Shown here: positions 875 through 63,937 of the stretch, one piece after another | Layout of the letters: each line of letters begins with the position of its first letter | Position numbering within the stretch: position 1 is the first letter of the stretch | From: Eledone cirrhosa | Taxonomy: Eukaryota | Reading direction: 5' to 3' | Length of the DNA: 64,000 bases | NCBI GenBank assembly: GCA_964016885.1 | Contig: OZ024746.1 | Coordinates: 86,738,001-86,802,000 of the forward strand | Made by a program: the position numbers and the translations under genes | Notes under the pieces: model-generated | The model's input: the letters and a program-made list of their open reading frames with translations, nothing else | The model's database searches: none | Told to the model about the DNA's origin: nothing

Positions 875-1027
875 TAACGAAGGAAGTCTGGTAAGGAACC
901 AAATAGACCATAACGCACCAGACTACTCAATACTTAGGGTAGTAGAGCTCAAGCCGTTTCGGCGGCTATTTTTGGACTAAATAGCTGTCGAAACGGCTTC
1001 AGCTCTTCGGGGTTAAACTTTTTCCTA
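875..1027 (-). mobile_element. TA-embedded hairpin+tail element, family B (internally deleted)
   Basis: Shares ggtaaggaacca..gaccataacgcaccaga.tactcaatacttagggtagtagag with the other copies. Strand is defined as hairpin to tail. Confidence 0.75.
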
Positions 1028-1167
1028 TATAGCTGTCTAAACGTCATGTTATAACTTTAAGGTAAAATTCCTTATTGAGCGCTTTAGCTGCACATCCCAA
1101 CTGCATTCGTTAGTTTGGCTGCAACCAGAGGTTCGATTAAGCTGTACTTCCTTTATATATATATATA

Positions 1168-1361
1168 TAGGAACAAGTATGACCCCGACGGCAGAGCTGA
1201 AGCCGCCCCGACGGCTATCTCTGGACGGAGTTAGCCTTCGGGGCGGCTTGAGCTCTGCCGTCGGGGTCATACTTGTTCCTATTACCCACTCTACTACCCT
1301 AAGTATTGAGTACTTGGGTGCGTTATGGTCCATCTGGTTCCTTACTCTATTTCCTTCGTTA
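1168..1361 (+). mobile_element. TA-embedded hairpin+tail element, family B
   Basis: About 50-bp inverted arms (taggaacaagtatgaccccgacggcagagct... / ...agctctgccgtcggggtcatacttgttccta), then an ~80-bp conserved tail, with (TA)n on both sides. Confidence 0.8.
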
Positions 1362-1378
1362 TATATATATATATATAT

Positions 1379-1790
1379 ATGTATAATATTTCGTATCTCC
1401 AAAGAAATACAGTTTTAGGAAGCCGTAGCTATGCAAACACCGGGGGCTAACGCTCTCTGGTGATGTCCAGCAGAAGTTGAGCCAACTTATGCAGCTTCAT
1501 ATGCAAATGACATTAATCACCTCATTTACACAGACGAGAAAACTATATATTCTCAGCTGTCGTCTAGTCCAGCAGTCGCAAGCGGTGGGAGGCACCGTCC
1601 TGACGAAGGCCAGTTAAGCCTGAAATGCAGAGACGGTTGTCACCCTTGCTTCTGCTGGACATCACCAGAGGGCGTTAGCCCCCCCGGTGTTTGCATAGCT
1701 ACGGCTTCCTAAAACTGTATTTCTTTGGAGATACGAAATATTATACATATTGTGTAAAGCTATGCTTGAAGCGAAATCCTATATCTTTTA
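1379..1790 (+). mobile_element. Penelope-like short insert: inverted 5' copy, hammerhead motif and 3' extension
   Basis: 1379-1476 is the reverse complement of 1649-1748. The right arm continues ~40 nt to (TA)n. Hammerhead motif at 1594-1637. Confidence 0.7.
1594..1637 (+). ncRNA. Type I hammerhead-like motif with GA at the UH cleavage position
   Basis: accgtc-CTGACGA-aggc(cagttaa)gcct-GAAA-tgca-GA-gacggt. Perfect stems I and II; palindromic stem III. Confidence 0.65.
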
Positions 1791-1871
1791 TATATATATA
1801 TATATATATATATATATATATATATATATTAAATACTGAGACGGAATCATCGGACAAAATCGTTTTAATAC

Positions 1872-60275: not shown

Positions 60276-60401
60276 CATCCCTATTGTTGATAAATAATAT
60301 ATTTCTGCTTTCTTCCCGATTGAACATTACTGTCCTCTTTCCTTTTTTACCTACAGATATATATATATATATATATATATATATATATATATATATATAT
60401 A

Positions 60402-63400
60402 TGTCCTGGGTATGACATTAAACTACATCCAGTGGCAAGGCTCCAGTTCGGGAGTTCAGGAGATGTGGGGAATGTGGAGTTACCCCTTAATTGTCATGAC
60501 TCCCAGGCCTGCCCTGGCCCGGGGTGGTAGAACCTGTTAGGGCTCCATTTATGGGTTAAATAACTACCTTATTCGAGTGGCGCCGGTAAGGTAATGTCAG
60601 CCATTGAAAAGAAATATGGAGAATCGATCTAACAGCACTAGGGTTAGAGCCCCTAATTACACTGTCAAGGAGCAGCCTGGTCGTTATGACTCTGCTGGCT
60701 TAGAGCCACAGAGAGGGCCAGTGGATGATGGATGAGCTGTCTCTGAGACAAATATAAAGAATGCAGTTTTGTCCTGCAGAAGAGCCATCAAAATGGGCAC
60801 TTTGAATGTGAGGACTGTTCGAACGCTGGAGAAGAGAGAGGAGTTGGGACATCTGTTCGAGGAGAGTGGTATACAGATACTTGCGATCCAAGAACACAGG
60901 ATTCTACACGATGAGCCCGTGAGGAGTGTGATGATCGGGAGGAAGAGCCAGCTCATCACTACATCGGCAGTGAAGAACACAACAAATGCTGCAGTAGGAG
61001 GAGTGGGTTTTGTGTTCAGTGCAAAAACCAATCTGTTGGTGAGGGAAATAATGCCTATCTCCCCGCGAGTGTTGAGGGTGACCTTCAATGGAAACCCAAG
61101 ACTGACAGTCATCTCAGCCTATAGTCCAACCGAGGGGGACAGTGATGTGAATGCGGAGGAGTTCCACGAGGAGGTGTGTAGAGCTGTCAACACCACTCAG
61201 GCACACAATATCCTGCTTGTTTTGGGGGACTTCAATGCACATCTGAGTAAGGAGGGCAGTGAAGATCCTTGCTGGTACTTCCATAACAACACCAACCGAA
61301 ATGGAAGACTACTGAGAGACACCCTGCTGGAGGCGAACTTGATGGCGACCAACCTAAGGTTTAGGAAGAATCTGGGGAAGATGTGGACCTACATCTAAGA
61401 TATGCACCTGTCCAAGTCCCAGATTGATTTCATTCTGGTGAGGAAAAAGTGGCGGAATAGTGTTCTGAACACGGAACCATACAGCTATTTCAGTACACTG
61501 GGCAGTGACCACCGGCTTGTTATGAGTGAGGTCCGCGTGAGCTTAAGAAAGAGCAAGGCTCAGCCCCGGAGAACAATCTATGACTGGGGAGCTTTCAAGG
61601 AAGATGATAAGCTACAGGAGAGGTTCACAGTGGAAGTGAGAAACAGGTTTAGTGCTCTGTGCGGAGAGTCAGAGGAGAGAGAGATTGGATGGACTGAGGA
61701 GAGTGTGACGAGGAGGTACGGGCACTTCACCAATGCAGTGGCGGAAGCAAGTGAAACCCTGGTGCCGAGGAAAAAGAACAAAGGGAAGCACGTCAGCTCT
61801 GCAAACCCAAAAATGTGTGCAGCCAGAGAACACCTGAAAGCTGCCAGGGACCAATTCTATGCTGATCCTACGGAGGAGAGGATGGAGACTGTGGAGGTGA
61901 TGAGGGAAGAGCTCTGTACCGCTTACACTGAGGTCAGAGAGGAGGCACTGATAGAGAAGATCAGAAGTGTGGAGAGAGCGGTTGACAGATCTGGATGTAA
62001 GGAGAGCTGGATGATCATCAACGAGATCACAGGGAGGAAGAGAAGGTGTTCGAGTCAGATCCAGGGAACGGGGCCCGAGGATAGGAAGAGGAAATGGCTA
62101 GACCATTTTAGGACCCTACTAGGAGAGCCACCCTCCACAGCCCAGAGCACTGGGGAGATCAGGCGGCTGTTTGAGGAACTGGATGTTGAGACAGAGCCCT
62201 TCACCAGAGAGGAGCTTCAGAGAGCCAAGAAGAAGATCAAGGAGGGCAAGGCTCATGGAGAAGATGGAGTGGCATCAGAGGTGATGAAGAGGTGTGATTT
62301 TGATGATATCATCCTGGGATTCTGTAACGGGGCACTGGAGAAAGGAGTTGCCCCGAATCAGTGGAGGATCAGTAACATCGTCCCAGTGCCAAAGAAGGGA
62401 GATCTCTCTAACACCAACAACTACCGGGGATCTCACTGACGTCACTTGTAGCAAAGACCCTCAACAGGATGATTCTTAACAGGATCCAGCCTGAGATGGA
62501 GAAGAAGCTCAGGGACAACCAGAACGGCTTCAGAGAGGGTAGATCAACCACCAGTCACATCCTGATGCTGAGGAGGATATTAGATGGAGCTAGAGCAAAG
62601 TGCCTTCCTGCGGTCATGGTTTTCATTGACTTTAGGAAGGCCTATGATTCTGTGGACCGTTACTGCCTGATGAAGATCTTACAGGCTTATGGAATCCCCA
62701 AGAGGATAGTGGACCTGATATCACTGCTCTACACCAACACCAAAGCCCAAGTCATTACACCTGATGGGATGACAGAGTTTTTTGAGATACTGGCTGGAGT
62801 GCTCCAGGGAGATACATTGGCTCCCTACCTTTTTATCATCGTAGTGGACTATTGTATGCGCCTTGCACTGGAGAAACACCAGGACTCTGGCTTTACTGTA
62901 GCACCGGCTCAGAGCAGGAGAGTTAGGGCGAAAAAGGTATCGGATGCTGAATTTGCCGACGACATAGTTTTGGTGACAAATACAGTGAAGGAGGCAGAGG
63001 ATTTGATGCGGGAGGTTGAGACTGTGTCGATGAGTGTGGGGCTGAGAATGAATGAGACTAAAACAAAATATCTGGTAGAGAATGTTGAGAAGCCAGAGGG
63101 GATCACTAATGTAGGCGGGAAGCCGCTGGAATTGGTTGAGGACTTCCTGTATTTGGGAGCAAAGATTGGGAATACGGAAGATGATGTGGTTGAGAGGAAG
63201 AGCAAGGCCTGGGCGGCGTGCCACAGCTTCAGATCGGTGTGGAAGTCGGACCTTCGTAGAGACCTGAAAATCCTCCTCTTCATTGCTGTAGTGGAGTCTG
63301 TGCTGCTGTATGGGTCTGAGACTTGGACACTGACCAAGAAACTCACTCAGATGGTGGATGGGTGCTACACGAGAATGCTGAGGATGGCTCTGAACATTAA

Positions 63401-63710
63401 TCAGTATACACTGAGGATGAAAAACTCAGAGCTGTATGGGATCATCCCAAAAGTCAGCTCAAAAGTGACACAGAGGAGACTGAGGTTGGCTGGACATGCT
63501 CACCGACATCCAGAGTTGACATTAAACTCAGTGCTCCTTTGGGAGCCCCTACATGGACACGCTAGAAGAGGAAGACCAAGGTTAACATATGTTGATGCCC
63601 TAAGGACAGACACTGGTCTGTTGGAAATGCAGGATATGGCAGCGATAATGAGGGACAGAGACCGCTGGAGAGAACTCGTCCATGGATCTCGGGAATTTTA
63701 CCCGCCTTAG
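60402..63710 (+). mobile_element. Near-full-length RTE-group LINE inserted in (TA)n
   Basis: An ~3.3-kb GC-richer block bounded by (TA)n on both sides, with a structured 5' leader and one EN-RT reading frame. Confidence 0.9.
60769..63710 (+). pseudogene. APE endonuclease plus reverse transcriptase ORF with one stop and one frameshift
   Basis: GTLNVRT, LAIQEHR, SAYSPT, LGDFNA, QIDFIL and GSDH (APE). VPKKGD, NYRG/ISL, FIDFRKAYDSV, GVLQGDTLAP, FADD and FLYLG (RT). TAA at 61396-61398; 1-nt frameshift near 62430. The true start may be upstream. Confidence 0.92.
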
Positions 63711-63743
63711 ATATATATATATATATATTTGTTTGTGTGTGTG

Positions 63744-63937
63744 TAGGAAAAGAGTCGGGACCCCGACGGCTGAGCTCCGGCCGCTGCAACAGCTAGATTT
63801 AGTTCAGATCTAGCTGTCGAATCGGCCGGAGTTCAGCCGTCGAGGTCCCGACTATTTTCCTATCACCCACTCTACTACCCAAAGTATTGAGTACTCTGGT
63901 GCGTTATGGCCCACCTAGTATCTTACCACACACTTTT
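63744..63937 (+). mobile_element. Family B hairpin+tail element, full-length
   Basis: About 55-bp arms around a ~9-nt loop, then the conserved tail and (TA)n. Confidence 0.8.

What the first reader, a model, noticed from the sequence alone, without database searches (positions are those of the whole stretch)
875..63937. Family B: about 10 asymmetric hairpin+tail elements whose hairpin may be a folded-back hammerhead
Seen: copies at 875, 1168, 27616, 28375, 28535, 41467 (fragment), 45058, 45255, 52412 and 63744, nearly all touching TA repeats. Each has an ~50-bp-arm hairpin at one end and a conserved ~80-bp tail, so the inverted repeats do not bound the element as in a MITE. The arm reads tctagctgtc-GAAA-cggccg-GA-gctc, the layout of a hammerhead 3' half with a palindromic stem III. 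Inference: reverse transcription stopped in stem II, the cDNA snapped back and copied the downstream sequence, replacing the CUGANGA box. Both arms of a copy tend to carry the same subfamily variants (aacaagtatga vs aaagagtcagga), consistent with fold-back per insertion or with arm conversion.
Basis: partly seen in the sequence, partly recalled or inferred. Interest (0 to 1): 0.7.

Follow-up and report, generated by a model that had tools for sequence, protein, structure and literature searches.

The report
Twin-primed Penelope stubs cut in hammerhead
These hairpin-plus-tail repeats are two back-to-back, cut-short end pieces of a very abundant Penelope-type jumping gene sitting in TA repeats, each hairpin arm holds half of a predicted self-cutting RNA motif, and each insertion was likely made by copying RNA from both cut DNA strands rather than by one copy folding back.

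Summary
The family is real: all 10 window copies are there, and a 25-base tail motif has 41,829 exact matches in the genome. The parent was found: a 3.54-kb Hydra-clade Penelope-like retrotransposon (717-aa RT + C-terminal GIY-YIG). Family B is its textbook insertion shape, an inverted 5'-truncated copy plus a direct copy with a one-sided tail, cut to about 60 bp per arm. Snap-back is disfavoured: the tail-less arm is longer in 16 of 54 clean pairs and the tailed arm in 8, and 53 of 54 joints differ. All 102 short pairs carry exactly one tail. Of 63 copies that reach position -50, 53 stop inside helix II. The scan reported this kind of element before in this genome. It is a new family of a known clade, with useful genomic evidence for paired priming.

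The parts
875..1027 (-). Family B copy: tail plus internally deleted tailed arm, joined to a diverged tail-less arm
1168..1361 (+). Family B copy: tail-less inverted arm (1168 to about 1226), tailed arm (to 1281), tail (1282-1361). Both arms read GGGG where the family has GAAA
27616..27776 (-). Family B copy: tail plus full tailed arm, short tail-less arm
28373..28508 (+). Family B copy with both arms short, plus tail
28534..28696 (-). Family B copy: tail plus internally deleted tailed arm, full tail-less arm
41464..41515 (-). Lone tail-less arm, next to a TA run
45058..45192 (-). Tail cut short inside itself and joined directly to a full inverted tail-less arm
45255..45410 (-). Old, diverged copy: tail, short tailed arm, full tail-less arm
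52412..52577 (-). Family B copy: tail plus tailed arm with a 36-nt internal deletion, full tail-less arm
63744..63862 (+). Hairpin of copy 10: tail-less inverted arm and tailed arm, both ending at RT start site A (..TTCCTA), in the TA run at the end of an RTE-like LINE
63809..63846 (+). 3' half of the predicted hammerhead: helix II 3' strand, GAA, helix III, GUC site (C at 63841), helix I 3' strand. The 5' core is missing and A15.1 is mutated here
63863..63937 (+). About 80-nt tail between start sites A and T, beginning with a bulged hairpin. In tandem parents it runs on into the 5' UTR and ATG

Best explanation
Family B copies are extremely 5'-truncated insertions of a Hydra-clade Penelope-like retrotransposon in (TA)n, likely made when both strands of the cut TA repeat prime reverse transcription on the element's RNA at two fixed start sites about 80 nt apart, and both copies likely stop in helix II of the predicted hammerhead and are then joined head to head. 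Shown: the parent (3.54-kb tandem units, 717-aa RT + GIY-YIG ORF); the two fixed 3' ends (site A, 19 nt after the GUC site, and site T, about 80 nt further); tail continuity with the 5' UTR; one tail per insertion; unequal arms; unique joints; and the truncation peak at -50 to -69. Inferred: twin priming, probably by a protein dimer; that helix II structure causes the stop; that the template is uncleaved, multimeric or circular RNA, since both start sites lie 3' of the cleavage site and copies read across it; end joining by 0-4 nt microhomology or small insertions; and that the two bulged hairpins just 3' of sites A and T position the RT. The stubs lack the hammerhead core and the ORF and are likely dead.
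For: Parent: a long copy beside the window (L079) led to 97-99% identical long insertions built as inverted copy + direct copy + one-sided tail, with an RT/GIY-YIG ORF. Tandem 3.54-kb units with full-length ORFs exist. Hydra motifs are met. Hammerhead: the unconstrained MFE fold gives the three-way junction; 93.7% of cells pair, 0 of 500 shuffles reach this, and slid controls give 19-52%; N7 varies freely. Two ends: of 30 hammerhead-bearing copies, 11 end at T, 18 at A and 1 elsewhere (counted by eye). Pairing: 102 of 102 short two-arm copies are A+T (59 tail-anchored, 16 incidental, 27 picked by likeness); long pairs are 12 A+T, 2 T+T and 1 A+A of 15. Arm lengths: tail-less arm longer in 16, tailed arm longer in 8, within 5 nt in 30 of 54; in long abutting pairs either copy can be longer by hundreds of bases. 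53 of 54 joints are distinct. In vitro, a PLE protein nicks and extends both strands from two internal RNA sites that define the tail, and does not need hammerhead cleavage (PMC11167929).
Against: Arm lengths correlate (rho 0.41, p 0.002), and several short pairs are near-perfect hairpins (18/19, 23/24, 37/37), which a fold-back or later symmetric trimming would also give. Post-insertion deletion at palindrome centres could create some of the asymmetry. Copy 1168 shares a private AAA>GGG change in both arms. Covariation in the hammerhead is modest: 2 pairs with two-sided change, at shuffle level, and part of the alignment was fixed by my search pattern. The young hammerhead folds no better than shuffles (z -0.08), and the second bulged hairpin is weak (z -0.6). 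Pfam gave no hit on the parent protein and solved structures no significant one; its identity rests on motifs and on homologs with PF26215/PF28514/PF01541. Cleavage and priming were not tested.
Confidence: 0.8

Rival explanations
1. One cDNA (or an antisense RNA, as Arkhipova et al. 2013 proposed for head-to-head PLE joints) folds back and primes on itself, and later deletions make the arms unequal.
For: Published hypothesis (PMC3846280 passage). 30 of 54 pairs are within 5 nt and arm lengths correlate. Shared private change in copy 1168.
Against: A sense-cDNA fold-back needs tailed arm >= tail-less arm (broken in 16 of 54). Antisense self-priming needs the reverse (broken in 8 of 54 and in 6 long pairs). 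T+T and A+A pairs exist. One copy has arms of two subfamilies (L235). One-arm deletions occur on either side (window 52412 and 28535 against 27616). Fold-back gives no reason for the second strand to stop at site A.
Confidence: 0.12
2. Long inverted PLE insertions collapsed after insertion by deletion of the palindrome centre down to a stable arm of about 60 bp.
For: Long palindromic insertions exist. Short pairs are far more common than long ones (8 of 96 tails extend beyond 100 nt).
Against: Copies without an adjacent full inverted partner also stop at -55 to -66 (L245, L260, L187, and the 5' end of the L292 array). The youngest subfamily already has many stubs, each with a different joint. 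Long, nearly perfect palindromes persist (L126).
Confidence: 0.05
3. Family B is a self-propagating non-autonomous DNA element (MITE, or Crypton-like hairpin-tail repeat) or a fixed non-autonomous PLE unit.
For: Very high copy number. One joint recurs in 4 of 21 parsed best-match copies.
Against: Joints differ copy by copy (53 of 54). Arms continue seamlessly into the PLE 3' UTR and ORF. Of 9 DUF3504 loci only one holds a copy, at its edge and apart from the ORF. A 299-bp retrozyme-like derivative exists at one locus only.
Confidence: 0.03

Closest known systems
Hydra clade of Penelope-like elements (Craig et al. 2021, PMC8557442; includes Hydra-1_Obim)
   Same: Single ORF with C-terminal GIY-YIG, RW(K/R), DKT, CxCX5C linker, CxxC and CxH motifs, (TA)n targets, hammerhead at the 3' end, inverted 5'-truncated copy and one-sided tail.
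   Different: A different family from Hydra-1_Obim: the protein differs by eye and that element has a CUGAAGA core; two family motifs gave 0 hits in the supplement text (line breaks could hide hits). The unit is 3.54 kb against 'generally <3 kb', the tail about 80 nt against 30-40, the core mostly U3-A8, and there is a sharp truncation peak in helix II.
Poseidon PAc of Anolis (Frangieh et al. 2024, PMC11167929)
   Same: Two internal RT start sites bracket the tail; both strands are cut and extended; AT-rich targets; uncleaved RNA is used as template.
   Different: Penelope/Poseidon clade; its start sites are a few nt apart inside the ORF. The parts I read give no genome-wide count of how the two ends pair.
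PLE hammerhead variants (Cervera and de la Pena 2014, PMC4209133)
   Same: Type I motif in the pLTR, long helix II, short helix I, U3-A8 core variant, mostly solo truncated copies, pairs of motifs on opposite strands.
   Different: Here helix III is a stable 5-6 bp stem with a GAGCUC loop rather than minimal, and most genomic copies keep only the 3' half.
Non-LTR retrozymes (bioRxiv 10.64898/2026.07.22.740005)
   Same: The 299-bp tandem array at G000:C2 is a direct deletion derivative of this PLE with the hammerhead motif in each unit.
   Different: Family B itself is not tandem and lacks the core, so it is not a retrozyme.

Membership tests
EN+ Penelope-like element | Single ORF with RT and GIY-YIG endonuclease | tested here: met
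   P0001, 717 aa, with FDIES/YRDD and VIY..YIG motifs; homologs carry PF26215, PF28514 and PF01541; a direct Pfam scan was blank
EN+ Penelope-like element | Tandem or partial-tandem pLTR structure | tested here: met
   L133 and 3-4-unit arrays of 3.53-3.55 kb
EN+ Penelope-like element | Inverted 5'-truncated copy and tail at one end | tested here: met
   tail about 80 nt, longer than the usual 30-40
Hydra clade | RWK, DKT, CxCX5C linker, CxxC and CxH around conserved E/N, no CCHH | tested here: met
   RWR, DKT, CNCPDRSIC, CNLC..E, CKH read by eye in P0001 against the section read and alignment passages
Hydra clade | (TA)n insertion preference | tested here: met
   flanks
Hydra clade | Placement in the Hydra clade of an RT tree | not tested
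   reference sequences were seen only as supplement text and were not typed in; no tree built
Hydra clade | Canonical hammerhead (C3-G8 core) | tested here: not met
   0 of 20 aligned and 0 of 8 tail-anchored long copies have CUGANGA; most are UUGANAA, a known functional-type covariant. A hammerhead fold is present, so this is a variant, not an absence
Type I hammerhead ribozyme (parent) | Three helices around the core, GAAA, NUH site | tested here: met
   GUC in 17 of 20; Rfam gave no hammerhead hit
Type I hammerhead ribozyme (parent) | Self-cleavage | not testable with these tools
Type I hammerhead ribozyme (family B stubs) | Complete core | tested here: not met
   no core motif 5' of any window arm
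MITE / Crypton-type non-autonomous DNA element | Fixed unit with defined internal structure and a DNA-transposase partner | tested here: not met
   53 of 54 joints distinct; the parent is an RT element

The most novel reading that the evidence does not exclude
This family records the PLE integration reaction about 100,000 times: a dimeric RT-endonuclease binds two bulged RNA hairpins 80 nt apart and primes one cDNA from each strand in a strict one-tail, one-no-tail pair, and the element's own hammerhead helix II acts as a built-in RT terminator that turns most insertions into harmless 200-bp stubs and so limits the element's spread.
Probability: 0.3. Interest if true: 0.6.

Novelty: new member of a known kind. 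Interest (0 to 1): 0.33.

Why it matters
The structure class is known, so this is mainly correct annotation of a repeat with on the order of 10^5 copies (rough estimate) that looks like a MITE. The added value is mechanistic. How Penelope-like elements make head-to-head inversions and one-sided tails is still open: self-priming was proposed in 2013 and two-site initiation was shown in vitro in 2024. This young, full-ORF family gives countable genomic evidence for paired two-strand priming, and a sharp truncation site inside the ribozyme. Both can be tested with one protein and a 300-nt RNA.

Tried and rejected
Rfam found no family at gathering score in the window; the 150 of 330 weak hits listed were mostly microsatellite artefacts; there was no hammerhead hit on the parent end. 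Crypton origin was rejected. Naiad origin was rejected: the endonuclease is C-terminal and a hammerhead is present. The first GIY-YIG search did not reach the parent: 2 of 30 loci held only incidental stubs. ADAR-edited templates as a general feature were rejected: no A>G excess over T>C in arms (8 against 7) or long copies (12.6 against 17.7 per 10,000). The 299-bp derivative is not the source of the stubs, since it occurs at one locus. RNA evidence: no RNA holder listed; no reads were laid. Solved structures gave no significant hit. Paper searches listed no paper on this family or on twin priming in PLEs; subscription journals and Repbase/Dfam were not searched, so it may be annotated there.
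Full report
Observation. The window is microsatellite-rich animal DNA (G000:C6:86,738,001-86,802,000 of a 3.0-Gb assembly; probably an octopus, from recall and earlier notes, not tested). All ten cited sites hold the family, and the arm motif is far above chance (8 matches against 0 in 100 shuffles). Only 1168 and 63744 have two near-full arms; the rest have a short or deleted arm, and 41464 is a lone arm. 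A 25-base tail motif matches 41,829 times genome-wide, with 0 in the control. Only 5 of 17 tails in the window plus 200 kb of neighbours match it exactly, so the total is roughly 10^5 (an extrapolation from a small sample).

The parent. A copy 73 kb from the window has an arm running into about 1 kb of other sequence. Searching with that stretch gave 95-100% identical copies, many as inverted pairs. They are built as inverted truncated copy + direct copy + tail at one end, in TA runs, and encode an RT with a C-terminal GIY-YIG domain. L133 and several arrays show head-to-tail 3.54-kb units with full-length ORFs, in which the tail runs on into the 5' UTR and ATG of the next unit. The protein shows by eye the Hydra-clade marks listed by Craig et al. 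(section read; supplement passages): RWR, DKT, CxCX5C, CxxC and CxH, and TA targets. It differs from Hydra-1_Obim. Pfam and solved-structure searches with it gave nothing significant; 2,051 homologs were found, many carrying PF26215 or PF28514. The inverted copy with a one-sided tail is described as typical of PLEs (passages).

The hammerhead. Allowing a longer helix II and either core gave 282 hits against 0. In 20 of the 30 loci fetched, aligned, the cores were UUGANAA 16, UUGAAGA 2, CUGAGAA 2 and CUGANGA 0, with a GUC site in 17. Eight long copies found without that pattern agree. U3-A8 is a published PLE variant (parts 1-2 of PMC4209133). Helix I is ACCCC/GGGGU, and helix III is a 5-6 bp stem around a loop containing GAGCUC. 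Unconstrained folds give the three-way junction. 93.7% of cells pair, above all 500 shuffles and far above the slid controls, but two-sided covariation is limited to 2 pairs and the pattern fixed part of the alignment. Folding z-scores are -0.08, -1.1 and -2.1, and Rfam has no hit. Activity is untested. Family B keeps only the 3' half.

How the hairpin forms. Copies end at two fixed points: site A, 19 nt after the GUC site, and site T, about 80 nt further; both end in TA. I parsed 96 tail-motif hits in 90 loci covering most of the first 100 listed places on C1. In 54 clean two-arm copies (of 68 with a parsed partner; 14 with large overlaps or gaps dropped), the tail-less arm is more than 5 nt longer in 16, the tailed arm in 8, and 30 are within 5 nt; lengths correlate (rho 0.41). 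53 of 54 joints differ. All 102 short two-arm copies carry exactly one tail (59 tail-anchored, which cannot show A+A; 16 incidental; 27 picked by likeness). Of 15 long abutting pairs, 12 are A+T, 2 T+T and 1 A+A, with either copy the longer. A fold-back of the tailed cDNA cannot give a longer tail-less arm, and antisense self-priming (proposed in PMC3846280, passage) cannot give a longer tailed arm; both cases occur. In the window, 52412 and 28535 have the deleted arm on the tailed side and 27616 the short arm on the other, and 45058 joins a cut tail to a full arm. This fits the in vitro result that a PLE protein cuts and extends both strands from two internal sites that define the tail, on uncleaved RNA (PMC11167929, parts 1-2 read). 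Twin priming is therefore inferred. Later trimming of palindromes may add asymmetry, and the near-perfect short hairpins and copy 1168's shared AAA>GGG change leave room for some fold-back.

Arms by copy or side. Arms group by subfamily, not by side (own 0.061; other 0.151; same-side 0.147 and 0.155), but shared private variants are rare. This is expected if both cDNAs come from the same source element, and it does not favour fold-back.

The truncation peak. Of 63 tailed copies reaching -50 from site A, 53 stop between -50 and -69, and 8 of 96 pass -100 (three values corrected by hand after inspecting). 48 of 68 tail-less arms stop in the same interval. The peak is tied to template position, not to cDNA length, since T-primed copies are 80 nt longer. 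It lies on the 3' side of the extended helix II, and it is also seen in copies without an adjacent full partner. That helix II causes the stop is inference (about 0.5). Two similar bulged hairpins lie 4-6 nt 3' of sites A and T. In the first, variation is concentrated in the loop and bulge (91 tails; the last four stem bases were fixed by the search). A similar hairpin is visible in a published Hydra consensus (by eye). Earlier notes of this scan raised that lead.

Verdict. Family B is real, ordinary in kind and well explained: stubs of a new Hydra-clade PLE family. The scan has reported the same kind of element and the twin-priming reading at other places in this genome. Other papers were seen only as search listings, except the retrozyme preprint (part 1 read) and PMC5753468 (passages). 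Repbase, Dfam and subscription papers were not searchable, so prior annotation cannot be excluded.

Noticed in passing
L292 (G000:C2:356,029,900-356,032,050): Seven-unit tandem array of a 299-bp deletion derivative of the same PLE (hammerhead with shortened helix II, tail, 5' UTR, first codons), inserted in TA. A retrozyme-like array with a traceable parent; its joint occurs only here.
   Followed up: partly
window 1168-1281: Both arms carry GAAA>GGGG plus further A>G changes in the sense direction, as an A-to-I edited template or edited source would give. No general A>G excess in the family.
   Followed up: partly
window 649-829 / 1876-2119 and 1380-1476 / 1649-1747: Two other inverted pairs nested around or beside copies 875 and 1168, with CUGANGA..GAAA motifs at 681-709, 2059-2087 and 1600-1625; probably ends of other PLE families.
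   Followed up: no
window 21451-21475, 21883-21907, 48738-48765, 51262-51285: Further CUGANGA..GAAA motifs with possible helix II; 11 such matches in the window against 2.2 expected.
   Followed up: no
window 60736-63710: RTE-like LINE reading frames (endonuclease and RT, broken) ending in the TA run that holds copy 63744; other LINE remnants at 56356-58392 (family names recalled).
   Followed up: no
window 8055-8805, 54254-54933 and about ten other sites: Abundant SINE-like repeat, partly in tandem.
   Followed up: no
L295:7170-9978: A 55-bp piece of the PLE ORF amplified into a tandem array of more than 50 units at the 5' end of a PLE multimer.
   Followed up: no
L032, L034-L036, L038, L039: DUF3504 (Crypton-type) open frames of 400-600 aa in this genome, unrelated to family B.
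   Followed up: no
parent 3' end, e.g. L133:2165-2205: The 3' strand of helix II and the 3' strand of helix III are near-direct repeats, so both can pair with the helix III 5' strand: a possible inactive alternative fold.
   Followed up: no
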